DNA of 64,000 nt from Victivallales bacterium (GTDB lineage: Bacteria > Verrucomicrobiota > Lentisphaeria > Victivallales > GWF2-38-69). This document shows positions 50,396 through 64,000 of this stretch, piece by piece. Numbering within the stretch: position 1 is the first letter of the stretch; every line of letters starts with the position of its first letter. Made by a program: the position numbers and the translations under genes. The stretch lies in contig JAIPJT010000010.1 of the NCBI GenBank assembly GCA_021733985.1, positions 3,115 to 67,114 of the forward strand, written 5' to 3'. A model generated the notes under the pieces. It was not told where the DNA came from. It saw only the letters and a program-made list of their open reading frames with translations, and made no database searches.

Positions 50396-50404
50396 AATTA
50401 TATA

Positions 50405-52087
50405 TTAGTCAAGCTGCGTTACTCGCAGAACTTCTTCTGCGGTTGTTATTTTTCCTAAAATTTTACTGATACCGTCTTCACGCATTGTTTCCATCCCGGC
50501 ACAAAGAGCTTCCTTCTTTAATACTTCTGTAGAAACTTTTTCATTTGTCAGTTTTCTGAGCTTATTGTTCATTTCAATAAATTCTATTATACTGACTCTC
50601 CCTTTATAACCTGTGTCATTGCATGCTTCGCATCCCTTCCCGTAAAGCAGTTTAACCGGAATTTCTTTTTTTGCAGATTTGAAAAGAGTTTCTGCCGCAG
50701 CAGTAGGTGGTCGTTCATAAGCACATTTGGGGCATACGCGCCTTACAAGCCTCTGGGCCATTAACGCATTAACTGAAGAGGAGATCAAGAAAGGTTCAAT
50801 ACCCATATCCAAAAGTCTTGTTATTGCACTGATAGCATCATTTGTATGGAGTGTAGAAAATACCAGATGGCCGGTTAATGCTGTTTTTATGGCTATTTCA
50901 GCCGTCTCGAGGTCTCTTATCTCACCGAGCATTACAACATCCGGGTCAAGACGCAGTATACTTCTGAGCCCTGCTGCAAAAGTCAGTCCGACTTTAGCAT
51001 TTACATGAATCTGTGTAACTCCTGGAATTTCGTATTCGACAGGATCCTCTATTGTTATTATTTTCTTATCTACATCGTTTATAGATGAGATAGCAGCATT
51101 TAAAGTTGTAGTTTTACCGCTCCCTGTAGGTCCTGTTACCAATATAATCCCATATGGAAGTACTATTTGCCTTTTGAATGCTTTTAAGTTTTTTTCCCTG
51201 AAGCCAAGCATGTCCAGGTTTACAAGGCTTCCTGTTTTATCAAGTATTCTAAGTACAACTCCCTCTCCGTGAAGTACAGGGATGGTCGCTACACGAAGAT
51301 CATAGGACTTATCCATTAAATTTATGGAAATGCGACCATCCTGCGGGAGCCTTCTTTCAGCAATATTTATATCTGCCATTATTTTTATTCTTGAAATAAG
51401 AGCTGGATAAAGATTTTTAGGATAACGGCTTGATTCTTTAAGCACTCCGTCGATTCTGTATCTGACAATTGCCTCTTCTTCATAAGGCTCAATATGAATA
51501 TCGCTTGCCCCAATGGAAATAGCCTGCATTATTATAAGGTTTACTCGTTTTATTACCGGAGCTTCATTAGCAATATCTTCTATGGATTTATCGCTGAGTT
51601 CTTCTAAAGAAAATTCATCGTTTTCTTTTTCAATAATGCCCTGCGCTTCCGGACTGCTTGCAATAATACTTTTTTTAATGGCATCTATCCTGAATCCAGC
51701 TATGATCCTTAAAGAAATATTCCAGCCGGTTACAAGCTGAAGTTTATCGATCAATTCTATTTTTAATGGATTAGAAATACCGACAACAATTTTATCATCC
51801 TTCCTGAACAACGGAATTACTTCTTTTGCTTCCTGCAATTCTTTGTTAAGAGATAAGTATAAATCGGGTTCAATCTCTTTATCATCCGGTTCTGAATCTA
51901 TCCAACCGAGGCCGAGATCGTCTGCAATAAGCGGCATTAACACCTGTTCGGATATATATTTACCGTTTAAAATAGTTTCCAGTAGATTATTATTGGAATT
52001 AACAGATAATGCCTCTATTTCATTTAATCTCTTGTTATCTATCAGTTTGTTTTCTAATATTATTCGTTTTATCGTTTTTCTGTCCAT
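50405..52087 (-). CDS. gspE: Type II secretion system ATPase GspE
   Basis: N-terminal MshEN-like domain, Walker A GPTGSGKTTTL, GEIRD, tetracysteine CPKC...CEAC. Confidence 0.92.
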   Translation of the reverse strand: MDRKTIKRIILENKLIDNKRLNEIEALSVNSNNNLLETILNGKYISEQVLMPLIADDLGLGWIDSEPDDKEIEPDLYLSLNKELQEAKEVIPLFRKDDKIVVGISNPLKIELIDKLQLVTGWNISLRIIAGFRIDAIKKSIIASSPEAQGIIEKENDEFSLEELSDKSIEDIANEAPVIKRVNLIIMQAISIGASDIHIEPYEEEAIVRYRIDGVLKESSRYPKNLYPALISRIKIMADINIAERRLPQDGRISINLMDKSYDLRVATIPVLHGEGVVLRILDKTGSLVNLDMLGFREKNLKAFKRQIVLPYGIILVTGPTGSGKTTTLNAAISSINDVDKKIITIEDPVEYEIPGVTQIHVNAKVGLTFAAGLRSILRLDPDVVMLGEIRDLETAEIAIKTALTGHLVFSTLHTNDAISAITRLLDMGIEPFLISSSVNALMAQRLVRRVCPKCAYERPPTAAAETLFKSAKKEIPVKLLYGKGCEACNDTGYKGRVSIIEFIEMNNKLRKLTNEKVSTEVLKKEALCAGMETMREDGISKILGKITTAEEVLRVTQLD

Positions 52088-52419
52088 ATTCCGGGATATA
52101 AATAGTTATACTTGAAATTTAAATACTGCTTTTTGTGGTAGAAAATTAAATACTTTGTATAGAATATAGTATTACTTAATATATATTATATACTAAATTC
52201 AATATAAAACTGCACCGTTTTTATTTTTTTCATTATAAACCCGTGTTTTGCATTAGTCCGGCGAAATTAGGAGCGTAAGCATTCAAGGTGAATATACAGT
52301 TCGACAGCTCTAAAATAGGAAGGCACAAAAGATAAAAAAAAATTAAAAATTGTTTTTTTAATTTATAATATGCAATATAATAAATAAAAAATAACTGAAA
52401 TATTAACGGAGTTGCTAAC

Positions 52420-52842
52420 ATGCATATGAGAAAGATTCAGAATTATACTTTTATTGAAATTATGGTTGTTGTGATAATCATCGCAATACTCGCAGCAGTT
52501 GTTATGCCTAAATTTGCAGGGAGAACAGAAGATGCAAGAATCAGCTCAGCACAATCACAGCTAAGTATTTTCCAAACAGCATTGTCTACTTATAACTTAG
52601 ATACAGGAAAATATCCTACTACACAGCAGGGACTTAAAGCTTTGGTAGAGAAGCCCTCCTCCCCCCCTGTACCTTCTACCTGGAAAGGGCCTTACCTTCA
52701 GTCCAAAAAAATTCCTAAAGACCCATGGAAAAATCCATATATATATAAATGCCCCGGAAAACATAATACTACTTCGTATGATTTATATTCCTATGGGCCT
52801 GATGGACAGCAGGGCGGAGATGATGATATCACTAACTGGTAA
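52420..52842 (+). CDS. gspG: Type II secretion major pseudopilin GspG
   Basis: YTFIEIMVVVIIIAILAAVVMPKF N-terminal helix, KGPYL, DPWKNPYIY, YGPDGQQGGDDDITNW. Confidence 0.9.
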   Translation: MHMRKIQNYTFIEIMVVVIIIAILAAVVMPKFAGRTEDARISSAQSQLSIFQTALSTYNLDTGKYPTTQQGLKALVEKPSSPPVPSTWKGPYLQSKKIPKDPWKNPYIYKCPGKHNTTSYDLYSYGPDGQQGGDDDITNW

Positions 52843-52904
52843 ACAATTTACAATATAAAAACCCTCAAATCATAAATAAAATAACAGATTATAATTTTTC
52901 AGCA

Positions 52905-53621
52905 GTGGCTGCTATTAAAAAGAAAAAATCTTTTACTTTTCTTGAACTTCTTATAGCCGTAATAATTTTTCTAATTGTTACTGTAGTAATTACTGCAGTT
53001 TACAGAGTGGTTATCAACTCTTATAAAAAAGGAACTGAATATTCAGATTTGTCGCAAACGCTTTCAGGCACGTTCCTTGTTATGAAGCACGATCTACTAA
53101 AATTAGTTAGAATAAATGACAAAGATTCTGTTCACTTTAAAAAAGACAAGTTTTCCTTTATTGCTGAAGTAAAAAATCAGCATGACAAAACCATCCTGCA
53201 GGAAATTCAGTATAGCATTGAAAATAATAAGCTTTTGAGAAGATTCACTGAATACCCGGACAGTAATTTGAATACCGGGGAACCAGTTCTATTCCTTGAC
53301 AATATAACAGAAACAACATTTAATTATATGTATAAAAAGAAAAAGAGGAAAAAGAAGAAAAACAGCAGTGATTTGTTAAATGATTACAAAAAGAATGACA
53401 ATAAAAAAACTAATATATCAAAAGATGATAAAAGTGACTCTAACATAAAAATTCCGTCATATATAACAATTTCAGGCCGTATTAAAGAAGGAGAACTCGA
53501 GAAGGACTTTAAAACAGCGTTAAATATTCCCCTGTTTGATATACTGAAAATATCAAAATCAACAAAAAGCGATACTGAAAAACAGACACCAGCGAGAACA
53601 ACAGTAACAAGTAATGTTTAA
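52905..53621 (+). CDS. Minor pseudopilin (GspJ-like) with Lys-rich low-complexity insert
   Basis: GTG start. KKKSFTFLELLIAVIIFLIV prepilin-type N-terminus. KKKKRKKKKN insert. Confidence 0.6.
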   Translation: MAAIKKKKSFTFLELLIAVIIFLIVTVVITAVYRVVINSYKKGTEYSDLSQTLSGTFLVMKHDLLKLVRINDKDSVHFKKDKFSFIAEVKNQHDKTILQEIQYSIENNKLLRRFTEYPDSNLNTGEPVLFLDNITETTFNYMYKKKKRKKKKNSSDLLNDYKKNDNKKTNISKDDKSDSNIKIPSYITISGRIKEGELEKDFKTALNIPLFDILKISKSTKSDTEKQTPARTTVTSNV

Positions 53622-54588
53622 GCACAGTAAAAATATGAATAATAATGGATTTGCTCTTGTTTTAACACTTTGGATTCTTGCCATTATAACCACATTGCTT
53701 ATAACTTTCACATTATCCGTTAATCTGTCAATAAAAAATGCACAATATTTAAAAGAGGAAATTGTTGATAATGCCCTACTTACTGCTGCTGTAAACCGGC
53801 TTAAACCTGAGATTGTTTACCCAGGAGACAGGAATAAAAAATCCCGGAAAAAAGATTCAGCTGAAAATAATAATAGTCCTGATGATAATCAACAGAATAA
53901 TAAAAATGGCAAAAATAAACCCTCTTCGCAAAATAATAAAAATAGAGCAGAGTGGTATTACAGAGTATTAGGAAAATGGTATGTTTATATCGATGATTGG
54001 AGTGTATCACGAGATAAAAAATTAAATATAGATTCGGATAAATATATATTGTGTATCGTGACTGCTGAAGACGCAAAGTTTGACCTGAGAAAGTTTGGAG
54101 ATTTAAAAAAAATCCCCAATTACTCAGATGAAATTCTTCAAAATATAAAAACAAAAATTAAAGAAGAAAAAAATTTCAGGTTTACATGTGTTCCACAGCT
54201 TTTGACAGTTAACGGTGTTTATGGAGAACAATATGATGGTGACAGTATGAGGTTAAAGGGACTAAAAAATATTTTAACAACTTTTAGTGATGGAAAAATA
54301 TATGCAAATACAGCCTGTTCACAGGCCCTTGCTTTAGTGCCTGAGCTGGATATTAGCACTGCTGAAACAATTGCTCGGAACAACGAGTGTATATACGATT
54401 TTAAAGGCCTGAAAGAACTCATTGGAATGGGCATTAAAAACAATAAAAACAAGCTAAAAAAATGGTTGAAGTTTATACCAAAATATTTTAAAATCAAAGC
54501 TTACAGTAACGACCAGGAGATTGTTCAATACAAAGAAGCAGTAGTGGGAATAGAAGACGGGAGTTTAAAATTATTAGCTTTGAAATGA
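53614..54588 (+). CDS. gspK: Minor pseudopilin GspK-like
   Basis: NGFALVLTLWILAIITTLLITF (no Glu+5, as in GspK). Asn/Lys-rich insert. 8-nt overlap with the upstream gene. Confidence 0.6.
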   Translation: MFKHSKNMNNNGFALVLTLWILAIITTLLITFTLSVNLSIKNAQYLKEEIVDNALLTAAVNRLKPEIVYPGDRNKKSRKKDSAENNNSPDDNQQNNKNGKNKPSSQNNKNRAEWYYRVLGKWYVYIDDWSVSRDKKLNIDSDKYILCIVTAEDAKFDLRKFGDLKKIPNYSDEILQNIKTKIKEEKNFRFTCVPQLLTVNGVYGEQYDGDSMRLKGLKNILTTFSDGKIYANTACSQALALVPELDISTAETIARNNECIYDFKGLKELIGMGIKNNKNKLKKWLKFIPKYFKIKAYSNDQEIVQYKEAVVGIEDGSLKLLALK

Positions 54589-54595
54589 GGTAGAT

Positions 54596-55966
54596 TTGAA
54601 AACAGGGTTACTATACAACAGCAATGATACAAAAATCGGTGTGAAAGTATCGGAAAAAGGGAAAAAACTTAATATAGAAAGTTATTTTTCTGATTCAAAA
54701 GAACTTCTTAATGTAAAGAAACCGGTTATTGGCTTACCCTTTGAATTTTTTATTACAAAAAGTGTTAAAATCCCTAAAGTATCCAGAGAGGAGTTAAAAA
54801 AAACTGAGGAACTCCAGGTAAAGTTTCTGCTCGGCGAAAATGCTTATAATACACATATGATAAATACAGAAATCTTAGAGCACGGCAATAGTTATATATT
54901 GTTTATAGTCGCGGCAGAAGTACCTGAAGAATTCCAGAAAGTTAAAAACGCAGTGATAGTACCGGGAATTTTAGGCATTTTTGCTTTTGCAAATAAAGAA
55001 AAAATGTTTGACAGTACAGAAACTGTCATGCTCATATATATAACTAAAGATTATACTCGTCTTATAGTTGTTAACGAAGGCAGTATTGCTTTTATGAGAA
55101 GCTTTCCCGCAGGCAGCGATATTAATTCTGAGATAAAGCTTTCTGAACAACTGGTTTATCGAAAGCCCGAACGCAGTTTTTTTAAGATTAAAAAATTAAT
55201 CGTTTTTTATACCGATGAAAAAATTAAAAAAGTAATTAACAGAAAAAAAACGGAAGAAATTATATGGCATAACGTCTCTGATTTTATAAAAAACGGTCAG
55301 AACTGTTTTCTTTCTTATGGATTGTCATTATATGATTATTCCGAAAAAAAAATCAGTGAGTGGAACGTAGGAGAAAAGCCCCCTTCTATAACCGATTCAT
55401 TAAGAAGAGCAATGTTTTGGCTTGTTCCTGTTTTTATCATTTTCCTACCTTTATATTATTACGGTGATTATTATCAAGATATTAAAAAGATTCAGACTAT
55501 AGAAGGTGAAGTAAAGCTCTTATCAAAAAAAACCATGGAGCTGGATTCGCTCATCCAGAAAATCTCAAAAGCAGAAAATCTCATAAGTAAATATGCCGAA
55601 CCGTTGCTTAGGTATGCAAAACTATATAATGCCGTTTACCTTATCAATAAATATCGACCCGACAACCTCCGGCTCACAAATCTTACTGGAAAGTCAGATG
55701 AAGAATTTACTTTGACCGGTTATGCTGATAATTTCAGCCAGATATCGGACCTGATTAAAAAACTTAACACTTCAAAATTTTTTGATACATTAAACCTTAA
55801 TTACAGCAATACCTCGTCTAAAAATAAAGTGAATTTTCAGATGACAATGCAGCTGGCGCCTGGGTTTGATTTTTTATTTACAGAAAATAAAAATGATAGT
55901 CCTGAAAAACCAAATAAAAGAATAACACCTGAAAAACCGGTATCGGTTGTTCGAAACCAAAATTGA
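54596..55966 (+). CDS. GspL / PilM-PilN-like bitopic assembly protein
   Basis: TTG start. Cytoplasmic actin-like half. TM AMFWLVPVFIIFLPLYYYG. Periplasmic coiled-coil plus ferredoxin-like half. Confidence 0.5.
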   Translation: MKTGLLYNSNDTKIGVKVSEKGKKLNIESYFSDSKELLNVKKPVIGLPFEFFITKSVKIPKVSREELKKTEELQVKFLLGENAYNTHMINTEILEHGNSYILFIVAAEVPEEFQKVKNAVIVPGILGIFAFANKEKMFDSTETVMLIYITKDYTRLIVVNEGSIAFMRSFPAGSDINSEIKLSEQLVYRKPERSFFKIKKLIVFYTDEKIKKVINRKKTEEIIWHNVSDFIKNGQNCFLSYGLSLYDYSEKKISEWNVGEKPPSITDSLRRAMFWLVPVFIIFLPLYYYGDYYQDIKKIQTIEGEVKLLSKKTMELDSLIQKISKAENLISKYAEPLLRYAKLYNAVYLINKYRPDNLRLTNLTGKSDEEFTLTGYADNFSQISDLIKKLNTSKFFDTLNLNYSNTSSKNKVNFQMTMQLAPGFDFLFTENKNDSPEKPNKRITPEKPVSVVRNQN

Positions 55967-55988
55967 GGAATAACGGAACTACTGTTTT

Positions 55989-57227
55989 ATGAATATTTCG
56001 AAAAAAGATCAAAAAATGCTGATTATCTTAGCCGTTTTTCTTTTGGCGATGGGATATTTTGAATTTATTTTTTTTCCGCTGTTCAATTTATCTCAAAAGT
56101 ATAATAATAAACTTATAAAAAAAAGAAAACAGCTTATTGTACTGAAAACAAAATTGGCAGGATTAGATGAATACAGGAGAAATTATAGAAAACTGCTTAA
56201 GATAATCAAGGTTGCTGATAAAAACTCTCTGATGCCTTATGAAGATGCTCCACTGAATAATAAAATAAAAGAAATAATGAAAGCCGCTTCAGAAAACTCA
56301 GTTAAAATAAAAAGTATTAAACCGATGAATTACATTAAGGAAGGCGAGGATGGTAAGCCCGAAGTTGTACGTGATAAATATTTCACTATTGAAGGTGAAA
56401 CAACTGTTTATCGTTTTCTCAATTTTGCAAGAAAACTCTGGGGAACAGAACTTGAAAGAGTAAACATTTCCACTATTGATAAAACAGGTAACAGACTGCG
56501 TTATTTTATAAAAATAGAATTTCTGGAAAAAATAAATTTAGACCTGAGTGACTTGAAAGATATAGATGCAAAGAAGTACAAAATTTTTGAATTAAAGCAT
56601 AACCCGTTTTCTATTATTAAACCTCCGCCGCCGCCAAGACCAAAAAGTAAGGCCACGCATAAACCCAAAGGGCCACCAAGAATTGTCCACAGAATCACAG
56701 GATATGAATTAATAGGTATTGCTCACTCAGGAAAAAAGGATATTGCAATAATAAAAGACACTAAAAAAAATAAAGTTGTTTATTTAGTTGAAGGTGACCA
56801 TTTTAGGGAATCTATTGTAAGATCGATTAAAGCAAAAAGTGTTATTTTTTATTTCGCGGATAATAAACAGAAAATTGTAGCTAAACTTAAAAAGTCTGAC
56901 CTGAAACTAAGTCCCAATACACAGAACAGGAAAAACGAGAAAAAAGGCAAAAGAAAAGGCCATCTTGGCATAATGGTTGAAACTTTTACACGGGATTTAG
57001 CTAACAGATACCATGTCGAATTTAACCCCGGCCTGTTTGTCATCTCTCCGGGTAAACACAAAGATATATTTAAAAAACATGATATAATCCTGGAAATAAA
57101 TGGACAACCTGTACCGAATTTCGAAGCAGCCTTACGAGTGATGAACCAAATATATTCCGGCGATAAAATAAATATTGTATTAAAAAGAAACGGTAAAAAA
57201 ATGAACCTGACTTATAAGGCGGATTAA
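55989..57227 (+). CDS. GspC-like / GspM-PilO-like protein with Pro-rich linker and C-terminal PDZ domain
   Basis: TM MLIILAVFLLAMGYFEFIFFPLF. KPPPPPRPKSKATHKPKGPP. PDZ-like GIMVETF...ILEINGQPV...GDKINIVLKRNGKKMNL. Confidence 0.55.
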   Translation: MNISKKDQKMLIILAVFLLAMGYFEFIFFPLFNLSQKYNNKLIKKRKQLIVLKTKLAGLDEYRRNYRKLLKIIKVADKNSLMPYEDAPLNNKIKEIMKAASENSVKIKSIKPMNYIKEGEDGKPEVVRDKYFTIEGETTVYRFLNFARKLWGTELERVNISTIDKTGNRLRYFIKIEFLEKINLDLSDLKDIDAKKYKIFELKHNPFSIIKPPPPPRPKSKATHKPKGPPRIVHRITGYELIGIAHSGKKDIAIIKDTKKNKVVYLVEGDHFRESIVRSIKAKSVIFYFADNKQKIVAKLKKSDLKLSPNTQNRKNEKKGKRKGHLGIMVETFTRDLANRYHVEFNPGLFVISPGKHKDIFKKHDIILEINGQPVPNFEAALRVMNQIYSGDKINIVLKRNGKKMNLTYKAD

Positions 57228-57304
57228 TTGAGTAAGTTGTTCTGCACGGTTATATTTAAAACTAAAATCGATTGGAAATATTTTATATTTTTATTGGAGC
57301 TGTA

Positions 57305-59119
57305 ATGGTAAAAAGACTCAAATTATTTATTTTAATTGTGGCGTTCCTTATATTCGGAGCAAACAATAAAACTCTGCTGGGAGCAGAATACTCTAAAAAC
57401 AACCAAACTCAGCTTAAAACAAACGCATCCGATGAAATTACAGCTAACAGAAAAAGATTTTTAAAATTTAAAAAAATGCTGCTGAAATCTATACCGCCTG
57501 AGGAGAGGACCCAAATGCAGCAGGAACTAACCAGCTTATCTAATAATAAAGAGTTTTTAGAAAAACTATCCCCTGAAATTATGAGGCACATAAAAAATGA
57601 AGTGGACAATTATAACAGTGGAATAAAAAATGCTGATTCCCGAAAGCACACAAACAATACCAGTAATGCTTTAAAAACCAATAATGCTGAAAAGTTAAAA
57701 ACAAATGTAAAAAAAGACAGAAACAAAAGAAACATTTCTTTTGACTTCCCCAAGGTCGAATTAGAGGAGTTCGCAAGATTTGTTGCAGAATTGAATAAGA
57801 AAATTCTAATAGGAGCAAATCTGCTTCAGGGAAAAATAACTTTGGAAACTCCTGAAAAGATTTCATTAAATGAATTAATGGAGATTTTTGAAGCAATTTT
57901 AAACGGTAACGGCCTCTCATATATGGTTTCTGAAGATTACATGCAAATTTTTCAGAAGTCGAATTCTGAGGCCAGAGTATATAAAATTAATTATTTAAAA
58001 GCGTCCGATGTTGCAAAAACTCTTTCGGAAATATTTAGAATGAGCTTTAGGGTTGGCGGTGTTCCTGAAAAAGTTATGATAAGTTCACTCGATCAGGCAA
58101 ACAGCCTGTTAATACTTGCTCCAAAAGAAAAACATGCAGAAATAGCACAGGCTATAAAAGAAATAGACTTCAGAAGACGACAGGTCCTTATGGAGGTCAG
58201 AGTAATTGAACTTACACATAATAATGAATTTGGTTTTGGTGGTACATTTGCCATGAAATACAAAGCCACTTCCGGCGGTATGGCACCTGATGCATCGAGT
58301 TTTTCAGGTAAAGCCAATGGTTATGCCCCGCCTTTGGGCAGTTCCCAGCCCTATTCCGGTGTTTTATACAATAATGGACAATTTATGTATGACCTTGAAG
58401 CAGATCAAAATATTTCTCATCTGAAAATCCTTTCACAGCCAAAGATTCTTACTTCGGAAAACCAGAAAGCTCATATTAAAGTAGGCAAGCAACAACCTGT
58501 TGTTAATGCAGAAACAGCTATTGGAACATCACAAAATGATAAACCTATAGAAAAAACTACAGTTGACTGGAAAGATATTGGTGTCGACCTAAAAATTACA
58601 CCGAGAATTAATTCTGTCCGTGATGTAACGCTTGACCTTGAGATGAAAATAACTTCTATTATCAGAACAACTACTGTCGGTAGCTGGACGGATTATCCAG
58701 TTATAGGACAAAGAATAACCAAAAACAGCTCAACAGTTAGAGACAACGAAATGCTTTTTATTGGGGGTATTCTTAAAGATAGAAAAGTTACAACAAAATC
58801 TTCAGTCCCGTTTTTTGGGGATATGCCATATATCGGCTGGATGTTTGCCACGACTAAAGAAACTACTGAACAGACTGAGTTGATCATTATAATTATTCCA
58901 CGGGTTATCGAAACACCTTCAGACGGTACTTTTGTAACTGAAAATATTAAAGAAGATTTTTTAAATTATGATAAAGGCAACAAAAAAGATCTTGAAACTA
59001 TGATAGAGGGTAAACGCGGCAAATTCATGGATATTTTTAACCTCTATAACTATTTTAATGACAGTGAATACAGAAAAGAGCAGCCAGTTGTTCCTCAGCA
59101 GTGGAGTGAGCATAACTAA
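57305..59119 (+). CDS. gspD: Type II secretion secretin GspD
   Basis: Start at ATG with ggag RBS. Signal peptide MVKRLKLFILIVAFLIFG. N0-like domain ISFDFPKVELEEFARFVA. Secretin core ...LSQPKILTSENQKAHIKVG...VPFFGDMPYIGWMF. Confidence 0.88.
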   Translation: MVKRLKLFILIVAFLIFGANNKTLLGAEYSKNNQTQLKTNASDEITANRKRFLKFKKMLLKSIPPEERTQMQQELTSLSNNKEFLEKLSPEIMRHIKNEVDNYNSGIKNADSRKHTNNTSNALKTNNAEKLKTNVKKDRNKRNISFDFPKVELEEFARFVAELNKKILIGANLLQGKITLETPEKISLNELMEIFEAILNGNGLSYMVSEDYMQIFQKSNSEARVYKINYLKASDVAKTLSEIFRMSFRVGGVPEKVMISSLDQANSLLILAPKEKHAEIAQAIKEIDFRRRQVLMEVRVIELTHNNEFGFGGTFAMKYKATSGGMAPDASSFSGKANGYAPPLGSSQPYSGVLYNNGQFMYDLEADQNISHLKILSQPKILTSENQKAHIKVGKQQPVVNAETAIGTSQNDKPIEKTTVDWKDIGVDLKITPRINSVRDVTLDLEMKITSIIRTTTVGSWTDYPVIGQRITKNSSTVRDNEMLFIGGILKDRKVTTKSSVPFFGDMPYIGWMFATTKETTEQTELIIIIIPRVIETPSDGTFVTENIKEDFLNYDKGNKKDLETMIEGKRGKFMDIFNLYNYFNDSEYRKEQPVVPQQWSEHN

Positions 59120-59226
59120 TTTATTGGAGTGCAAACGACAAGATTTATATATACACGCGTTAACGATTGAGATTTTACAAAAAACTCAAAAATCAATCGT
59201 ATTGACTACTTATGTTTCTATTTTAT

Positions 59227-59829
59227 ATGAATAAATATCTATCCCTGAAAAAAAAATATAAAAAAAGTCTCCGTAACACCGGCGGCTTTACATTTCTGGA
59301 GCTAATGATAGTCATTATTATAATATCAGTAATGGCTGCCGTTTCAGCCCCTAAGTTTACTGAATTTTACAGTAGTTTGAAACTTCGAAATAACGCCCGC
59401 CGACTTAAACTTTTTTTTCTTTATGCCAGAAATACTGCACTTGTTAAAAAAAGAAATTGCCGAATTTATTATATTGCAAAAGAGAAAAGCTTTTTAATAA
59501 AACAGAAAAGAAAAAAAAATATATCCAAAGGTGACAATAATTATAATTCGGATGATAATATTATTGATAAATATCAAACTATTGGCGGTGTATTAAGAAA
59601 AATTACTCTTAACAAGGGGGTAAGACTTATAAGTGCACAGGAAATAGGTGCACTGCCTGTGCCTCGGAATACTGATTTCAATTTTGATATAAAACCTTAC
59701 GGTATTGATAATGCATATATGTTTACAATAGCCAATAATTATGAAGATAAAATAAAAATTGTAATCATGGCCGGAAGCGGAAATCCTAAAATATTTAATG
59801 AAAACTCTGAAAGTTATTACGGGGAATAA
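59227..59829 (+). CDS. Minor pseudopilin GspH/FimT-like
   Basis: NTGGFTFLELMIVIIIISVMAA (canonical G/F cleavage site) followed by an ARRLKLFFLYARNTA GspH-like helix. Confidence 0.6.
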   Translation: MNKYLSLKKKYKKSLRNTGGFTFLELMIVIIIISVMAAVSAPKFTEFYSSLKLRNNARRLKLFFLYARNTALVKKRNCRIYYIAKEKSFLIKQKRKKNISKGDNNYNSDDNIIDKYQTIGGVLRKITLNKGVRLISAQEIGALPVPRNTDFNFDIKPYGIDNAYMFTIANNYEDKIKIVIMAGSGNPKIFNENSESYYGE

Positions 59830-59834
59830 AAATA

Positions 59835-60317
59835 ATGGAACTGAAGAAATGCTCATATTTTACTCTTCTTGAGCTGCTGGTTGCAATGACTGTAATTGCT
59901 ATCTGTTTTACTGTTATTTTGAATGCGGTCGCTCTGAATATAAAAAATACTGCTATTGCAGAAGGATATACGACTGCAGGTTTTCTCGCTAAAGTAAAAA
60001 TGGCAAAGTTAATGAATAAAAATAAATTTGAAGTAGGTGAAAAAAAGGGTAATTTTGGTGATGATTATCCTGAATACAGATGGAATATTAAAATTAAAAA
60101 CTTTAATGACAAACAGTCTGCAGCTTCAGAATTCTTTGACATTTCAAGTTTAGAAGACTACAGTACTAATAATATTGCTAATGATAAAAATAAAGAAAAA
60201 CTTAAGAGCATCTTATTAACTGTCAGCTTTATAAAAGCTAACCAAAAAAGAAGTATAAAAATAAAAACACTGGTAACAGAGAATACTAAAAAAAAGAAGG
60301 AGAATAAACTTAAATAA
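59835..60317 (+). CDS. Minor pseudopilin GspI-like
   Basis: KKCSYFTLLELLVAMTVIAICF prepilin-type N-terminus, 160 aa. Confidence 0.55.
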   Translation: MELKKCSYFTLLELLVAMTVIAICFTVILNAVALNIKNTAIAEGYTTAGFLAKVKMAKLMNKNKFEVGEKKGNFGDDYPEYRWNIKIKNFNDKQSAASEFFDISSLEDYSTNNIANDKNKEKLKSILLTVSFIKANQKRSIKIKTLVTENTKKKKENKLK

Positions 60318-60391: not shown

Positions 60392-60570
<179 letters not shown>

Positions 60571-60712
60571 AGCATAAATACGGAAAATAAAATTCACATC
60601 TCAAAGTCTTCCTGTTCAACTTATTCAATATGAAGCATAGTTACTAAAATCTGATGCTCAAAGAAGAGAAAAATTCCTCAAAACTACTAAAGCTAAAATA
60701 AGGGCATTTGTC

Positions 60713-61597
60713 CTACACTGACATCTGTCCTTGTTCCTCTATCATATAATTAATATCTTTTTGAATATTTGATTCATTTTGAACTTCATATTTTTCGATA
60801 CTGTCAATAACGTATCCTCTTTCTTTATATTGTTCAATAATATTGAAGTATTCTTTTGTAAGCCTTGATGATTTTCCAATAGCATAGGCGGTTTCTTCTA
60901 TAGAGAACTTTTTCTTTCTGCATAGCAAAACCTGCTTAAAAGTTGAAATATACCTCTGTATAGCCTGAAGAGAATGATAAGTTTCTCTGCTTACCTGCTG
61001 AACAGTTTTCTTTTCTATAAAAAGTTTTTCTATTATTATCTTCTTATGAGTAAGGCTTGGCCCGATATCATGTATTGTGCCTCTTCTTGGAATTACTTCA
61101 CTATTTTCTTTTTCCCATTCCTTTATATATTTACTTACAGTAGTTGGAGATATTTTTAACAGTACGGCTGTTTCGGCATTAGTAAGGCATCCATCCTGAT
61201 TGTAGGCCTGTTTATGCAGCCTTGCTACGGCTTCTTTTTTCATATCTCTAAGTTTTTTTTTTCCGTTTGCCCTGTCAAGAGGATCACACTCCTGAACAAG
61301 CTCAAGCACAACATTAGTGAGTTTAGTTTTCTTTATAGACTTACCATAAGAGACTTTTTCATCTTTATGAACAGTTGTCCATGGTATCTGTCCCTGACGC
61401 ATATAATCTGCCTTAGGAAAAAACTTCAAAACCATATTATAAATGCTTTTAACCAGAACCTGTCTTGTCCTGAATCCGCCCAACTGTGGGCACTCTTCAT
61501 ATAGAAACGCTTCCAGCGCACCGGGAAATGTCTTATAATACTGAGGAGTATAAACAGCCTGATTAGATGAAACTTTTTTATTCATTGCATCCTCCAT
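60713..61597 (-). CDS. HTH-domain protein, paralog A (DUF1670-like by my recollection)
   Basis: 294 aa. LTNAETAVLLKISPTTVSKYIKEW, RRGTIHDIGPSLTHKKII, second HTH-like EETAYAIGKSSRLTKEY. The internal ATG at 61585 would give an ATGA overlap with the paralog B stop. Confidence 0.6.
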   Translation of the reverse strand: MEDAMNKKVSSNQAVYTPQYYKTFPGALEAFLYEECPQLGGFRTRQVLVKSIYNMVLKFFPKADYMRQGQIPWTTVHKDEKVSYGKSIKKTKLTNVVLELVQECDPLDRANGKKKLRDMKKEAVARLHKQAYNQDGCLTNAETAVLLKISPTTVSKYIKEWEKENSEVIPRRGTIHDIGPSLTHKKIIIEKLFIEKKTVQQVSRETYHSLQAIQRYISTFKQVLLCRKKKFSIEETAYAIGKSSRLTKEYFNIIEQYKERGYVIDSIEKYEVQNESNIQKDINYMIEEQGQMSV

Positions 61598-62463
61598 TCT
61601 TTTTTGGTAGAGGAGTTCAACTGTTGTGTTCTTTTTTTTTCATCCTGAGCCTTATAAAAGTCACATCCGGTACTTTCTATTTCTTCAAGCCTCATTTGAA
61701 AGAGTTTGCTATTTTTGTATTTATTATATAAACCTGAAAATACACTTACTGCTTTAACTGATATTCCAACAGTCAGGGCAATCTCAAAATCGTTAAAGCT
61801 CTTCCGCCTCAGATAAACAACCCTCTTAAATTTCTCAAGGTAGTTCTCTACTGATCTTATATGATGATTGATATGTGTTTTTATCTCAGCAGGCTCTTTA
61901 CCTTCAAGCCATAAACGAACTGCAATTTCTCTGTGTGTTACTCCAGGACCGATATCTTTTATTGTTCCTCGTGTAGGAACTACAATACCCTTTTCCTTTA
62001 ATGCATGAATATCACGTCTAACAGTTCTGACATCACACATGAGAAGTTCTGATAGATCCTCCTGGGTTAAAAGCCCTCCCTGATCTTTCGCTTCAGATGA
62101 TATGCGCATCATACGGCGACGACGGATTTCTGTGCTGCGTCCTTCATTAGAGCAGGAAGAAAGGTCCTGGCTGTCTGTAATATCAAAAAGTGTTAATAAA
62201 ACTGTTGTAATTTCACAATCTTTAAGTTCTTTGCCAGGGCCTTCATTTACCGATATACAGTTCTTTTTAACCTGTCCTTCCGATATTTCCCGTAATCCCG
62301 TACTATTGAAATATACTTCCTCTATCATCTCTACAAGGACTTCTGCTTCCCAGGGGCTCAAACCTGTACCGTTAACTGCAAGATTCTTCATCCTGCTGCT
62401 AAAATTCTTGATTGATAATCTGCGTTCTTGATTCTCATAACTGCTGGTATTACATTTAATCAT
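61582..62463 (-). CDS. HTH-domain protein, paralog B (DUF1670-like by my recollection)
   Basis: 293 aa. LTQEDLSELLMCDVRTVRRDIHAL, TRGTIKDIGPGVTHREIA, FEIALTVGISVKAVSVF. Collinear with paralog A over the full length. Confidence 0.6.
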   Translation of the reverse strand: MIKCNTSSYENQERRLSIKNFSSRMKNLAVNGTGLSPWEAEVLVEMIEEVYFNSTGLREISEGQVKKNCISVNEGPGKELKDCEITTVLLTLFDITDSQDLSSCSNEGRSTEIRRRRMMRISSEAKDQGGLLTQEDLSELLMCDVRTVRRDIHALKEKGIVVPTRGTIKDIGPGVTHREIAVRLWLEGKEPAEIKTHINHHIRSVENYLEKFKRVVYLRRKSFNDFEIALTVGISVKAVSVFSGLYNKYKNSKLFQMRLEEIESTGCDFYKAQDEKKRTQQLNSSTKKEWRMQ

Positions 62464-62681
62464 TGGTGTACCTCTTTTTTTTTGTTTTTCTAATATATCT
62501 ATATAATAGATAATTGAGGTATGCCAGTATTAAATGCCCTTAATATTTACGATTATAGGACACATGTCCGAATCGTAAATAATGATGCAGAAGAAAATAA
62601 GAGATTTTTTAAAACTTATCGACCAATGAACATATGAGGTTCGCCATGGCATTCGACATGGCGCCATATCGCATGATATGG

Positions 62682-62803
62682 CGAATCCTCTCGCCCCGAC
62701 CATTTTATTTAGACTAATATTATGCATTACGTTTACACTCTTCAGCTTAATAACAATCAGCTATATACAGGGTATTCATGTAATTTAAAACGGCCTATAC
62801 GAG
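62682..62803 (+). repeat. 122-bp perfect direct repeat, copy 2 (ectopic fragment)
   Basis: Identical to 60449-60570. The left flank is a palindrome-rich tRNA-like remnant. The right flank is the transposase-bearing sequence. Confidence 0.95.
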
Positions 62804-62808
62804 CCTGA
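62722..62808 (+). pseudogene. Truncated duplicate of the GIY-YIG 5' end (27 native codons)
   Basis: MHYVYTLQLNNNQLYTGYSCNLKRPIR, then A-stop where the repeat ends. Confidence 0.75.
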
Positions 62809-64000
62809 ATTCCCGAGAATTGTAACTATGCTAAATCTGAATTCCGAAAATTTTCATTATACGCCTCTGCTTTGGAGTAGTTTCAGTATAGACCTCTCCA
62901 TAACGGTTTGAGTATTTAATTTTAACTAAAGTTTCCATTTCCTCCATGATATCTCTTACTGTCAAAAACTTTAATTTATCATCAGGCTGTATTTTTGACC
63001 TTATCATACTGAAGTAAATCAGAGCAATGAACTGAAGGAAAACTCTACCATCCATTGCCGCGGCACTATGTACCCGTATGCGTTTCATATCCAGATGGTT
63101 CTTTAAATCATCAAAACAGTTTTCCACGGTATCTTTGTTACGATATACAGACAGTGCTTCAGCCGCATCTTTTATTTTATTTGACATAATACAGAAGAAC
63201 CCACTGTATCTTTTTCTCCGCTTTTGTATTTCACGATCATTAAATTCTACTTTTCTCCCCCTTTTGGGTGTTTCTTTTACAATTAAATATCTATCATATA
63301 ACTCTTCATGTCTTTCTACAGTATTTCCTGTAAGTAACTCTTCTCTGCATTTTAAAAGTTCACGTGTAAAACGGTCATATTCTTCTGCCGCACGTTCTGC
63401 ATTATAAAAAATATGAAGCCAGGAGCGATGTTTATTGTTACCCCATTTATAAAATTTGCTGACAGCATAAAGGGCTTCATCCTCCCCTGTGACAATATAG
63501 TTTGCCGGAGAGGTGATATTTTCGTATTCATTATCCAGGATGTTCTCAATCCATTTTCGTCCTGCAGGAATGGCTGTTGTAAATTTATGATGACGCCTGA
63601 ACAGTTCATCTAAGTTTGAAACGCTGTAAAAACCTCTGTCAAGTACAAAATGCAGCTTTCCCGCTCCAAGGTAATCAAGTGATTTTGCTGTTGTTTTAAG
63701 AGTCGAAACATCGCTGATGTTTCCCGGTAAACGGCGATAGTGTGCAGGCAGCCGGCTTTTCTGACCAAACAGCATGGCTATATTAATTTGTTCAAGTGAT
63801 TCCCCGTCACGGTTATAGCCAAAGTGAGTATACTCATTGCTGCGTGCATATGAAGATACCGAAGTAATATCATAGCAAAGCCAGTCATTTTCCTGAACAT
63901 GTGAAAGCCATAAAGAGAGAAATCTCTGTCTGCAGTCTACTGTTAATCTTAAAAGCAGTTCACTTATACGCTGAGATGGTATTATTTCTTCAAATGGATG
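62804..64000 (-). mobile_element. Partial insertion sequence (IS1634/IS4-like); one terminus presumed between 62804 and 62830
   Basis: Transposase ORF as above. The 122-bp repeat identity stops at 62803, 27 nt beyond the transposase stop. Terminal inverted repeats not identifiable because the other end is off-window. Confidence 0.6.
62831..64000 (-). CDS. IS1634/IS4-like DDE transposase, 5' end outside the window
   Basis: The frame stays open upstream of the track Met to 64000: HPFEEIIPSQRISELL...NDWLCYDITSVSSY...GYNRDGESLEQINIAMLFGQK. DDE landmarks are YDITS, VLDRGFYS and YRNKDTVENCFDDLKNHLDMKRIRVHS. Confidence 0.8.
   Translation of the reverse strand, partial: HPFEEIIPSQRISELLLRLTVDCRQRFLSLWLSHVQENDWLCYDITSVSSYARSNEYTHFGYNRDGESLEQINIAMLFGQKSRLPAHYRRLPGNISDVSTLKTTAKSLDYLGAGKLHFVLDRGFYSVSNLDELFRRHHKFTTAIPAGRKWIENILDNEYENITSPANYIVTGEDEALYAVSKFYKWGNNKHRSWLHIFYNAERAAEEYDRFTRELLKCREELLTGNTVERHEELYDRYLIVKETPKRGRKVEFNDREIQKRRKRYSGFFCIMSNKIKDAAEALSVYRNKDTVENCFDDLKNHLDMKRIRVHSAAAMDGRVFLQFIALIYFSMIRSKIQPDDKLKFLTVRDIMEEMETLVKIKYSNRYGEVYTETTPKQRRIMKIFGIQI

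What the first reader, a model, noticed from the sequence alone, without database searches (positions are those of the whole stretch)
60713..62463. Tandem, translationally coupled paralogous HTH proteins as the only intact cargo of the repeat-bracketed module
The two ORFs (294 and 293 aa) are collinear paralogues. Shared blocks include E/RxGQ(I/V)...(L/I)T.V.L(E/T)L in the N-terminal halves. Next comes an HTH (LTNAETAVLLKISPTTVSKYI versus LTQEDLSELLMCDVRTVRRDI), then the striking motif (R/T)RGTI(H/K)DIGP(S/G)(L/V)TH(K/R), then a further HTH-like region (EETAYAIGKSSRLTKEY versus FEIALTVGISVKAVSVF). The upstream stop overlaps an ATG of the downstream gene (ATGA at 61582-61585). From memory this resembles the uncharacterised DUF1670 family, but I cannot verify that. 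Two multi-HTH DNA-binding proteins next to att-like repeats, palindromes and an IS, with no classical recombinase, make them candidates for recombination-directionality, partition or transposition-accessory functions, or for an undescribed DNA-rearranging activity.
Basis: partly seen in the sequence, partly recalled or inferred. Interest (0 to 1): 0.6.

Follow-up and report, generated by a model that had tools for sequence, protein, structure and literature searches.

The report
DUF1670 gene pair: unrecognised mobile element
The two overlapping helix-turn-helix genes are the only genes of a compact 1.9-kb jumping element found in many copies across bacteria and archaea; it encodes no known type of transposase, so the DUF1670 proteins may be a new kind of DNA-moving enzyme.

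Summary
Two overlapping (ATGA) paralogous ORFs, 29% identical, both match Pfam DUF1670 strongly.

The "cargo of a repeat-bracketed module" reading does not hold. The 122-nt repeats, which start inside tRNA-Pro, are real but local. No other DUF1670 locus examined has a tRNA or long repeats.

The pair is a self-contained 1,881-bp unit (60696-62576) nested inside the bracket. The same unit, always the same two genes, recurs:
- at 80% DNA identity in a Victivallales genome with unrelated flanks;
- as identical copies among different neighbours;
- at least six times in the finished Neochlamydia S13 chromosome;
- in distant archaeal-type relatives.

The ends are conserved: 12-bp inverted sites (GGGCATTTGTCC) sit 6-7 nt from asymmetric tips. 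That motif occurs only twice in the 64-kb window, once at each end. Insertion is immediately 3' of WWTT (usually ATTT) and makes no target duplication. Deleting the element in silico restores intact genes at two sites.

Both genes are under purifying selection. No DDE, HUH, serine- or tyrosine-recombinase domain or fold was detected. R120, R165, H177, H200 and Y208 are near-invariant across the superfamily.

Best explanation: an undescribed insertion-sequence family whose A/B heteromer binds the ends. That A/B also catalyse movement is inferred, not shown.

The parts
60696..62576 (-). DUF1670 element proper, 1,881 bp. In gene orientation it reads ACGATTC...CCCTTATTT.
   Evidence: 80% nt identity to L001 over 60697-62580 with unrelated flanks. 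Logan contigs L002 and L003 (99.8% and 99.7% identical) end at these boundaries. Boundaries were defined from 14 insertion sites.
62577..62580 (-). Target tetranucleotide ATTT abutting the left (5') end of the element
   Evidence: Among identical elements this tetranucleotide varies (TTTT, AATT, ATTT in L021, L022, L024), so it comes from the target. Restored ORFs need exactly one tetranucleotide.
61582..62463 (-). Gene A, 293 aa, DUF1670
   Evidence: pN/pS is 0.18-0.21 against 75-83%-identical copies. AF2 model pLDDT 80.
60713..61585 (-). Gene B, 290 aa, DUF1670 paralogue. Its start is the ATG of the ATGA overlap.
   Evidence: pN/pS is 0.12-0.18. AF2 model pLDDT 82.
62558..62569 (.). Left-end 12-bp site GGACATGTGTCC (family consensus GGGCATTTGTCC), 7 nt from the element tip
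   Evidence: One of only 2 matches to GGRCANNTGYCC in the 64 kb (0.09 expected). Conserved in 13 elements.
60702..60713 (.). Right-end outer 12-bp site (GGACAAATGCCC in gene orientation), 6 nt from the tip and overlapping B's stop codon
60719..60730 (.). Right-end inner site GGACAGATGTCA, 17 nt start-to-start from the outer site
   Evidence: tandem second site in most elements examined; 10 of 13 at one mismatch or fewer.
62516..62527 (.). Possible left-end inner site CTGGCATACCTC (family consensus CTGGCGTTTnAnCC). Weaker call.
   Evidence: Read from the alignment of left ends. Inference only.
62552..62579 (-). Sigma-70-like promoter at the extreme left tip (-35 TTTACG, 16-nt spacer, -10 TATAAT). 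The left 12-bp site fills the spacer.
   Evidence: 10 of 12 matches. The same arrangement is visible in other subfamilies. Function is inferred.
60392..60469 (+). tRNA-Pro (UGG). Context only, not part of the element.
60449..60570 (.). Direct repeat copy 1 (122 nt: the last 21 nt of tRNA-Pro plus 101 nt downstream). Context.
62682..62803 (.). Direct repeat copy 2, 100% identical to copy 1. It is preceded by a degenerate tRNA-Pro 3' half interrupted by a 40-nt double hairpin, and it abuts the IS1634 tip. Context.
   Evidence: IS1634-family end consensus C-----YT is from PMC2266710.
62804..64000 (-). IS1634-family insertion sequence. The transposase frame is open from 62831 to the window edge. 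Context.
   Evidence: NCBIfam IS1634 E = 6e-57. Frame 0 has no stop codon.

Best explanation
The two genes are the complete coding content of an autonomous insertion-sequence-like element of about 1.88 kb, a family not previously recognised as mobile.

Shown: the unit has fixed, conserved, asymmetric ends. Each end carries a 12-bp site (consensus GGGCATTTGTCC) in inverted orientation, with a second site at the right end. The unit is multicopy within genomes and sits at unrelated loci. It inserts immediately 3' of a WWTT tetranucleotide (usually ATTT), and its own right end also terminates in ATTT. It makes no target-site duplication, and clean removal restores the interrupted genes.

Inferred:
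1. A sigma-70-like promoter at the left tip, with the left 12-bp site in its spacer, drives A and B and is autoregulated.
2. ATGA coupling gives roughly equimolar A and B, which act as a heteromer. Fused proteins with 2 or 3 DUF1670 modules exist elsewhere.
3. The winged-helix and C-terminal HTH modules bind the double-stranded 12-bp sites and bring the two ends together.
4. The same proteins carry out breakage and joining by a conservative, duplication-free chemistry, most plausibly through a covalent protein-DNA intermediate. The superfamily-invariant R120, R165, H177, H200 and Y208 are the candidate active-site residues.

In this window the element has landed in a 226-nt non-coding stretch between two 122-nt repeats next to tRNA-Pro. 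That repeat structure is a separate, local feature.
For: Family: both proteins match DUF1670.

Mobility:
- 80% nt identity to a Victivallales MAG over exactly 60697-62580, with unrelated flanks.
- An identical B protein (P0130) occurs in 53 index blocks. Its A+B pair lies beside an ABC transporter/glycosyltransferase, a RecD helicase, or an SMR gene. P0156 behaves likewise.
- At least 6 A+B pairs lie in the finished Neochlamydia S13 chromosome. Four were read and have identical ends and unrelated flanks.
- Most of about 1,480 homologues sit on 1.9-2.4-kb contigs. L002 and L003 end at the element boundaries.

Ends: the termini are conserved among elements whose proteins are only about 55% identical. 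The site motif occurs only at the two ends in 64 kb (0.09 expected).

Footprint:
- L044 minus the element gives a gapless HTH_37 domain only if one ATTT is kept.
- L008 minus the element gives a frame of at least 1,844 aa only at offsets of 0 mod 3.
- The left tetranucleotide varies among identical elements, while the right terminus is constant.

Autonomy: A and B are the only constant genes. pN/pS is 0.12-0.21. No conserved antisense ORF exists. The same A'+B' pair architecture holds in distant archaeal-type relatives. The superfamily has about 1,900 clusters at 50% identity, spanning PVC bacteria, Planctomycetota, Actinomycetota, CPR and Methanoperedenaceae.

Heteromer: fused proteins with 2 or 3 modules.

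Candidate catalysis: R120, R165, G172, H177, H200 and Y208 are 96-99% conserved over 105 divergent representatives.
Against: - No catalytic domain or fold was detected. Pfam, NCBIfam, PHROGs and PADLOC give only HTH hits. Foldseek against the PDB and BFVD gives nothing at E <= 1e-3, only winged-helix and paired-domain fragments.
- Part of the invariant motif (P-x-R-G-x3-D-x-G) aligns with the wing of archaeal winged-helix regulators. Those residues may only contact DNA.
- No empty-site allele, circle junction or transposition event was observed directly.
- Contig-length evidence is partly confounded by a database whose median contig is about 1 kb.
- Some metagenome contigs mix flanks (L017, L020) and may be chimeric.
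Confidence: 0.6

Rival explanations
1. The unit is mobile but not autonomous. A and B only bind the ends, as end-markers and autorepressors, and the DNA breakage and joining is done by a host or unlinked enzyme, much as Xer recombinases are exploited by IMEX elements.
For: Both proteins look entirely like multi-HTH DNA binders and no catalytic fold was found. The most conserved loop aligns with a winged-helix wing. The left site lies inside the promoter spacer, which is a repressor-like arrangement.
Against: - The element occurs in very distant hosts, both bacterial and archaeal, so any helper would have to be universal.
- No constant neighbouring gene was seen in about 40 loci.
- His, His, Tyr, Arg and Arg are near-invariant across about 1,900 clusters while the rest of the DNA-reading surface drifts. 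That is unusual for a pure binding protein.
- Both paralogues are always retained and are under purifying selection.
Confidence: 0.27
2. One reading: the pair is cargo (a directionality factor, partition protein or transposition accessory) of a small integrative module bracketed by att-like 122-nt repeats at tRNA-Pro, perhaps serviced by the neighbouring IS1634.
For: The repeats are perfect and start in the 3' end of tRNA-Pro, as att sites do. A degenerate second tRNA-Pro 3' half precedes repeat 2. An IS1634 lies next door, and that family can make long repeats of 8-514 bp (PMC2266710).
Against: - The conserved unit ends 125 and 101 nt inside the repeats.
- None of 7 other loci scanned has a tRNA or long repeats.
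- The neighbours of the pair vary freely.
- The module contains no integrase.
- The spacers do not resemble the IS1634 end.
- The repeats flank the DUF1670 segment, not the IS1634.
Confidence: 0.04
3. The two genes are ordinary paralogous transcription regulators with a host function, and their repetition reflects gene-family expansion or assembly artefacts.
For: Source annotations call homologues 'transcriptional regulator', 'biotin operon repressor' or 'CsgD family'. The proteins contain several HTH motifs.
Against: Non-coding termini are conserved together with the genes. Identical copies lie at unrelated loci and interrupt genes, and those genes are restored by clean removal. At least 6 copies lie in one finished chromosome. 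Nested IS110 and DDE insertion sequences show that copies are dispensable.
Confidence: 0.03

Closest known systems
Pfam DUF1670 (PF07900)
   Same: Both proteins are full-length members, at 187 and 177 bits against a cut-off of 25.
   Different: The family has no assigned function. No paper in the searchable library mentions DUF1670 or PF07900. The paired, mobile, end-defined architecture reported here does not appear in any annotation returned by the tools. Sources name homologues only as DUF1670 domain-containing proteins, hypothetical proteins or transcriptional regulators.
IS200/IS605 family (HUH/Y1 TnpA, 'peel and paste')
   Same: Insertion is immediately 3' of a specific tetranucleotide. 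There is no target duplication and there are no terminal inverted repeats at the tips. The ends are asymmetric, and excision leaves the target intact.
   Different: There is no Y1_Tnp/HUH domain or fold. Single-strand hairpins at the ends are not conserved: only the window's subfamily has one (z = -3.2), and the other ends tested give z from -0.8 to +1.3. The recognition sites look like double-strand palindromic sites for HTH proteins. Two paralogous proteins take the place of one small TnpA.
IS110/IS1111/IS492 (DEDD) and IS607 (serine) site-specific insertion sequences
   Same: Duplication-free, conservative-looking insertion at a short sequence shared between the element end and the target. 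The ends are asymmetric.
   Different: There is no DEDD_Tnp_IS110, Transposase_20 or Resolvase domain. Real IS110 elements are found nested inside DUF1670 elements as separate entities.
XerC/XerD paralogous recombinase pair
   Same: Two paralogues always occur together, the sites are near-palindromic with slightly different half-sites, and both paralogues keep the same invariant polar residues.
   Different: There is no tyrosine-recombinase fold or Phage_integrase domain. The invariant residues come in a different order and spacing (R120, R165, H177, H200, Y208 within 90 residues that include a winged helix).
Paired-like bipartite HTH DNA-binding domain of IS630/Tc1-mariner transposases and Pax proteins
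   Same: Two HTH modules are joined by a conserved basic/glycine loop. Weak hits to the IS630 N-terminus (E = 0.007) and to Pax5/Pax6 paired domains (Foldseek E about 0.3).
   Different: All hits are below significance. No DDE domain follows, and there is no TA duplication.

Membership tests
Pfam DUF1670 (PF07900) | Whole-protein score above the gathering threshold over most of the model | tested here: met
   Protein B (60713-61597): 187.5 bits, model positions 9-220 of 220. Protein A (61582-62463): 177.4 bits, model positions 19-216 of 220. Cut-off 25.
Insertion sequence (generic definition) | Several copies within one genome | tested here: met
   At least 6 A+B pairs in the Neochlamydia S13 chromosome AP017977. 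Four were read at 0.10, 0.48, 1.89 and 2.05 Mb.
Insertion sequence (generic definition) | The same unit at unrelated loci, with sharp and conserved termini | tested here: met
   The end-site motif occurs only at the two ends in the 64-kb window.
Insertion sequence (generic definition) | Interrupts genes; removing it restores them | tested here: met
   L044 gives a gapless HTH_37 domain. L008 gives a frame of at least 1,844 aa.
Insertion sequence (generic definition) | Encodes a recognised transposase | tested here: not met
   No transposase model scores significantly in Pfam or NCBIfam; the best is IS630 at 15.8 bits against a cut-off of 100. No catalytic fold by Foldseek.
Insertion sequence (generic definition) | Observed transposition, circle junction or empty-site allele | not testable with these tools
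   The empty-site hunt returned only the filled contig.
DDE transposases (IS4/IS1634, IS630 and others) | RNase-H-like DDE domain, and a target-site duplication | tested here: not met
   The models are almost all-helical with a single beta-hairpin. No DDE Pfam hit. No duplication at 14 sites.
Tyrosine recombinases | Phage_integrase catalytic domain or fold | tested here: not met
   No Pfam hit. No Cre, Xer or lambda-Int structure among the Foldseek hits.
Tyrosine recombinases | Catalytic R-K-H-R-H/W-Y signature | tested here: inconclusive
   R120, R165, H177, K/R178, H200 and Y208 are near-invariant, and H200-x7-Y208 resembles H/W-x9-Y. The order, the spacing and the fold all differ, and 3D clustering could not be checked.
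Serine recombinases (including IS607) | N-terminal Resolvase domain with a catalytic Ser | tested here: not met
   No Resolvase hit. There is only a weak match (E = 0.048) to the C-terminal part of a PHROG DNA-invertase profile.
IS200/IS605 (HUH) | Y1/HUH TnpA and conserved subterminal single-strand hairpins | tested here: not met
   No Y1_Tnp hit. Hairpins are not conserved across subfamilies.
IS200/IS605 (HUH) | Insertion 3' of a fixed tetra- or pentanucleotide without duplication | tested here: met
   The left flank ends in ATTT (10 sites), TTTT (2) or AATT (2). The right terminus is ATTT in 13 and ATTA in L001. This is a behavioural likeness only.
tRNA-targeting integrative element or genomic island | Direct repeats that include the 3' end of a tRNA gene | tested here: met
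   The 122-nt perfect repeat starts 21 nt before the end of tRNA-Pro. This applies to the local bracket, not to the DUF1670 unit.
tRNA-targeting integrative element or genomic island | An integrase inside the bracket, and tRNA linkage seen in relatives | tested here: not met
   The only genes between the repeats are A and B. No tRNA occurs in 7 other loci.
IS1634-type long target duplication | Long repeats flanking the IS1634 on both sides | not testable with these tools
   Repeat 2 abuts the IS1634 tip (CCTGAATT fits the consensus C-----YT; and PMC2266710), but the other end of the IS lies beyond position 64000. The two visible copies flank the DUF1670 segment, not the IS.
Recombination-directionality factor or ParB-type partition protein | A small Xis-like protein next to an integrase, or a ParA partner with a plasmid context | tested here: not met
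   The proteins are 290 and 293 aa. No integrase or ParA neighbour occurs in any locus. There is no hit in 72,556 plasmids.

The most novel reading that the evidence does not exclude
DUF1670 proteins are a previously unknown class of transposase or site-specific recombinase. They would be all-helical multi-HTH enzymes working as an obligate heteromer of two paralogues (or as fused 2- and 3-module proteins). An invariant Arg/Arg/His/His/Tyr constellation would cut after WWTT and join DNA without a target duplication. The class would be spread across bacteria and archaea in about 1,900 sequence clusters.
Probability: 0.45. Interest if true: 0.9.

Novelty: new variant of a known kind. Interest (0 to 1): 0.78.

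Why it matters
All well-studied insertion sequences use one of a handful of enzyme types: DDE, DEDD, HUH, or serine or tyrosine recombinases. Here is a compact element, abundant in bacteria and archaea, with sharply defined ends and a clean, sequence-specific, duplication-free footprint. Its only two genes belong to none of those types, and databases label them 'unknown function' or 'regulator'.

If the proteins are the enzyme, this adds a new class of DNA-rearranging enzyme. It would be small and have a short, readable target rule (WWTT), which is of interest for mobile-DNA biology and possibly for genome engineering.

Even if they are not the enzyme, three practical points follow:
- DUF1670 can now be annotated as the signature of a mobile element.
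- Thousands of 'regulator' annotations are misleading.
- About 2-kb assembly breaks in PVC, Planctomycetota and Methanoperedens genomes have an explanation.

Tried and rejected
1. tRNA or att linkage as a family trait. Rejected: 7 other loci have no tRNA and no long repeats.
2. The 226-nt spacers as a MITE-like IS1634 derivative, which would make the 122-nt repeats its long target duplication. Rejected: the spacers do not resemble the IS1634 end or anything else in the window.
3. IS200/IS605-style hairpin ends. Only the window's subfamily has a significant left-end hairpin.
4. Hidden third gene or antisense ORF. The longest stop-free antisense stretch is 71-115 aa and is not conserved.
5. Known RNA families in the unit. 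Only tRNA-Pro passed.
6. Defence, phage or plasmid origin. PADLOC and PHROGs give only weak HTH hits. There was no hit in 72,556 plasmids and one weak hit in 2.9 million viral contigs.
8. Empty-site allele. Contigs found through the window's own neighbouring gene break at the start of the repeat.
9. My single-protein scan of reference genomes found only 7 loci. An alignment query would have reached further, and that scan could not be repeated.
10. Literature searches for DUF1670, PF07900, Neochlamydia insertion sequences and new IS families with HTH proteins found nothing relevant.
Full report
**1. Checking the observation**

ORFs lie at 60713-61597 and 61582-62463 on the minus strand, 294 and 293 aa. 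They align at 29% identity over 195 residues, E = 4e-22. Both are full-length members of Pfam DUF1670: 2.9e-55 and 3.5e-52, 187 and 177 bits against a cut-off of 25.

The HTH segments, the RGTI(H/K)DIGP..TH(K/R) motif and the later HTH-like segment are all present and conserved. The upstream stop overlaps an ATG (ATGA at 61582-61585). In homologues the second gene starts at that ATG, so gene B is 60713-61585 (290 aa).

tRNA-Pro lies at 60392-60469. A perfect 122-nt direct repeat (60449-60570 and 62682-62803) begins in the last 21 nt of the tRNA. The neighbouring IS1634-family transposase (NCBIfam 6e-57) is open in frame to the window edge, so it is probably intact.

**2. The pair is a unit of its own, nested inside the repeat bracket**

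A DNA comparison shows that the segment shared with other genomes is only 60697-62580. It is 80% identical to a Victivallales MAG (L001/L004), and the flanks are unrelated. Two Logan contigs that are 99.8% and 99.7% identical to the window (L002, L003) end at those same boundaries, as contigs do at the edges of a repeated element.

None of seven other loci has a tRNA or long direct repeats beside the pair. The tRNA and repeat bracket is therefore a local feature, and 125 + 101 nt of non-coding DNA separate it from the unit.

**3. The unit is mobile and multicopy**

- Searches with A and with B returned 778 and 703 homologues. They are almost all 277-294 aa, and nearly all lie on contigs of about 1.9-2.4 kb.
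- One identical B protein (P0130) occurs in 53 index blocks. Its A+B pair lies next to an ABC transporter/glycosyltransferase, a RecD-like helicase or an SMR gene, and one copy is truncated by another IS.
- A second identical pair (P0156) shows the same pattern.
- The finished 2.59-Mb chromosome of Neochlamydia sp. S13 carries at least six A+B pairs with consecutive accession numbers.
- I read four of them, at 0.10, 0.48, 1.89 and 2.05 Mb. Their termini are identical and their flanks are unrelated.

**4. Ends**

Thirteen elements were compared; their proteins are as little as about 55% identical to the window's. The left end reads flank | WWTT-(A/T/C)CGATT(A/C/G)-GGGCATTTGTCC. The right end, read inward, is flank | AAATAA-GGGCAT(T/C)TGTCC-GGTG-CTGGCATTTGTCC.

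The ends thus carry a 12-bp site in inverted orientation, 7 and 6 nt from asymmetric tips, and most elements have a second site at the right end. In the 64-kb window the motif GGRCANNTGYCC occurs exactly twice, at 60702-60713 and 62558-62569, against 0.09 expected; none of 100 shuffles reached two.

A sigma-70-like promoter (TTTACG, 16 nt, TATAAT; 10 of 12 matches) occupies the left tip, and the left site fills its spacer. That arrangement suggests autoregulation, which is an inference.

**5. Footprint of insertion**

No target duplication is present at any of 14 sites with both flanks. Two interrupted genes give the exact footprint.

- *L044 (S13).* Deleting the element joins two HTH_37 fragments into one ORF. 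Only the junction that keeps a single ATTT gives a gapless match: residues 14-93 to model positions 1-80 of 80, at 100 bits. The alternatives give 90.6 and 85.5 bits with deletions.
- *L008.* Deletion that keeps one tetranucleotide restores a stop-free frame of at least 1,844 aa (145 before and 1,699 after the junction). Offsets of -4 or +4 break it. Sub-threshold metalloprotease alignments run across the junction.

The tetranucleotide left of the element varies among identical elements (TTTT, AATT and ATTT in L021, L022 and L024). The right terminus is always ATTT, apart from ATTA in L001.

The element therefore inserts immediately 3' of WWTT and brings its own terminal ATTT. This is a conservative, duplication-free pattern, unlike DDE transposition. 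It resembles IS200/IS605 or core-sharing site-specific insertion sequences in behaviour.

**6. The proteins**

- *Selection.* Both genes are under purifying selection: pN/pS is 0.18-0.21 for A and 0.12-0.18 for B at 75-86% identity. No antisense ORF is conserved.
- *Structure.* The AlphaFold2 models are confident (pLDDT 80 and 82). They are almost all-helical with one beta-hairpin, a winged helix near residues 130-160 and further helical HTH-like modules.
- *Known folds and families.* Foldseek against the PDB (both models) and BFVD found nothing at E <= 1e-3; the weak hits are winged-helix regulators, SelB, the Pax paired domain and Noc. Pfam, NCBIfam (which holds equivalog models for many IS-family transposases, several of which matched the neighbouring IS1634 gene), PHROGs, PADLOC and the PDB sequence searches give only HTH-level hits.
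- *Family size.* An exhaustive profile search found 1,922 clusters at 50% identity (356 at E <= 1e-30). Most are 250-295 aa, with forms of about 500-550 aa (two modules) and about 930-950 aa (three modules) and no catalytic partner domain.
- *Distant relatives.* Clusters from Planctomycetota, Actinomycetota, Parcubacteria, Methanoperedenaceae and other Euryarchaeota again lie on 2-3.5-kb contigs. One archaeal-type family again forms an overlapping A'+B' pair at varied loci, sometimes with a nested IS110, and has GGTCATTTGTCCTTATTT at its 3' end.
- *Invariant residues.* Across 105 divergent representatives, R120, R165, G172 and H177 are 99% conserved, Q128 and H200 97%, Y208 96% and D170 91%.
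- *Caveat.* The P-x-R-G-x3-D-x-G segment aligns with the wing of archaeal winged-helix regulators, so part of this conservation is probably DNA contact. The Arg/His/His/Tyr set remains a candidate active site, but I could not test 3D clustering.

**7. Mechanism**

Shown: a mobile, multicopy, end-defined unit with WWTT-specific, duplication-free insertion whose only constant genes are A and B.

Inferred: autoregulated expression from the left tip; equimolar A and B through coupling; heteromer formation (supported by the fusions); binding of the double-stranded 12-bp sites; and catalysis by A and B themselves through a covalent intermediate.

The ends do not conserve single-strand hairpins: z = -3.2 only for the window's subfamily, and about -0.8 to +1.3 for the other ends tested. 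An IS200/IS605-type recognition mode is therefore not supported.

The main rival is that A and B only mark the ends and an unlinked enzyme does the chemistry. The very broad host range and the lack of any constant neighbouring gene argue against it, but they do not exclude it.

**8. The local repeat bracket**

Repeat 2 is preceded by a degenerate tRNA-Pro 3' half (GACCAA...GAGGTTCG). This is interrupted by a 40-nt double hairpin just before the identical block.

Repeat 2 ends exactly where the IS1634 begins: CCTGAATT fits the family's end consensus C-----YT (PMC2266710). The same review reports that IS1634 and IS1549 make long repeats of 8-514 bp.

The two visible copies flank the DUF1670 segment and not the IS, and the spacers do not resemble the IS end. 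Contigs from related samples break at the start of the repeat.

Whether the bracket is an att-type remnant at tRNA-Pro or an IS1634-linked duplication cannot be decided without sequence beyond position 64000.

**9. Novelty and verdict**

No paper in the searchable library mentions DUF1670 or PF07900, and source annotations call these proteins regulators or hypothetical.

I conclude that this is a new insertion-sequence-like family defined by a DUF1670 gene pair. Confidence that it is a mobile element is about 0.9. Confidence in the full statement, including catalysis by A and B, is about 0.6.

Interest is 0.78. The most novel reading not excluded is a new class of transposase or recombinase, with probability about 0.45.

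Noticed in passing
window 62804-64000 (-): An IS1634-family insertion sequence starts exactly at the end of repeat copy 2 (its tip CCTGAATT fits the family consensus C-----YT). Its transposase frame is open to the window edge, so the gene continues beyond the window.
   Followed up: partly
window 62620-62703: Upstream of repeat copy 2 lies a degenerate second tRNA-Pro 3' half (GACCAA...GAGGTTCG). It is interrupted by a 40-nt insert that forms two small hairpins (CGCCATG/CATGGCG and CCATATC/GATATGG) just before AATCCTCTCGCCCCGACCA. The origin of the insert is unknown.
   Followed up: partly
window 49184-60317: A type II secretion / type IV pilus-like gene cluster (T2SSE, T2SSF, pseudopilins, PilN-like, secretin) runs up to tRNA-Pro. 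The same cluster occurs in Logan contigs L038 and L039 (SRR12088347 and SRR12088346), which stop at the tRNA.
   Followed up: partly
L029-L032 (e.g. L029:1059-2255): In an archaeal-type DUF1670 element, an IS110-family element (DEDD_Tnp_IS110) is inserted inside the A' gene in several metagenome contigs. This is a nested insertion sequence that splits A' into two fragments.
   Followed up: no
L014:641-2167: A DDE_Tnp_1 insertion sequence (508-aa transposase) has replaced the left tip of a DUF1670 element, removing the 12-bp left site and the promoter.
   Followed up: no
L001:12070-12954 (-): A 294-aa reverse-transcriptase (RVT_1) gene lies about 300 nt downstream of the Victivallales copy of the element. 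It is absent from the other loci, so the proximity is probably coincidental.
   Followed up: no
P0246, P0248, P0250, P0254 (about 930-950 aa) and P0344 (400 aa): Some proteins carry three DUF1670 modules and sit on contigs of about 3.5 kb. One DUF1670 protein has a C-terminal CHC2 (DnaG-type) zinc ribbon. P0294 fuses a UvrD fragment to a partial DUF1670, probably as an insertion artefact.
   Followed up: partly
L017 and L020 compared with L011 and L012: Some metagenome contigs combine the left flank of one insertion site with the right flank of another. These are most likely assembly chimeras through the repeat, but recombination between copies is not excluded.
   Followed up: no
window 62546-62580 (-): Only in the window's subfamily (window, L001, L011) is the left 12-bp site embedded in a longer inverted repeat (ATTTACGATT...AATCGTAAAT). 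As single-stranded DNA this folds well (-8.4 kcal/mol, z = -3.2). Other subfamilies lack it.
   Followed up: yes
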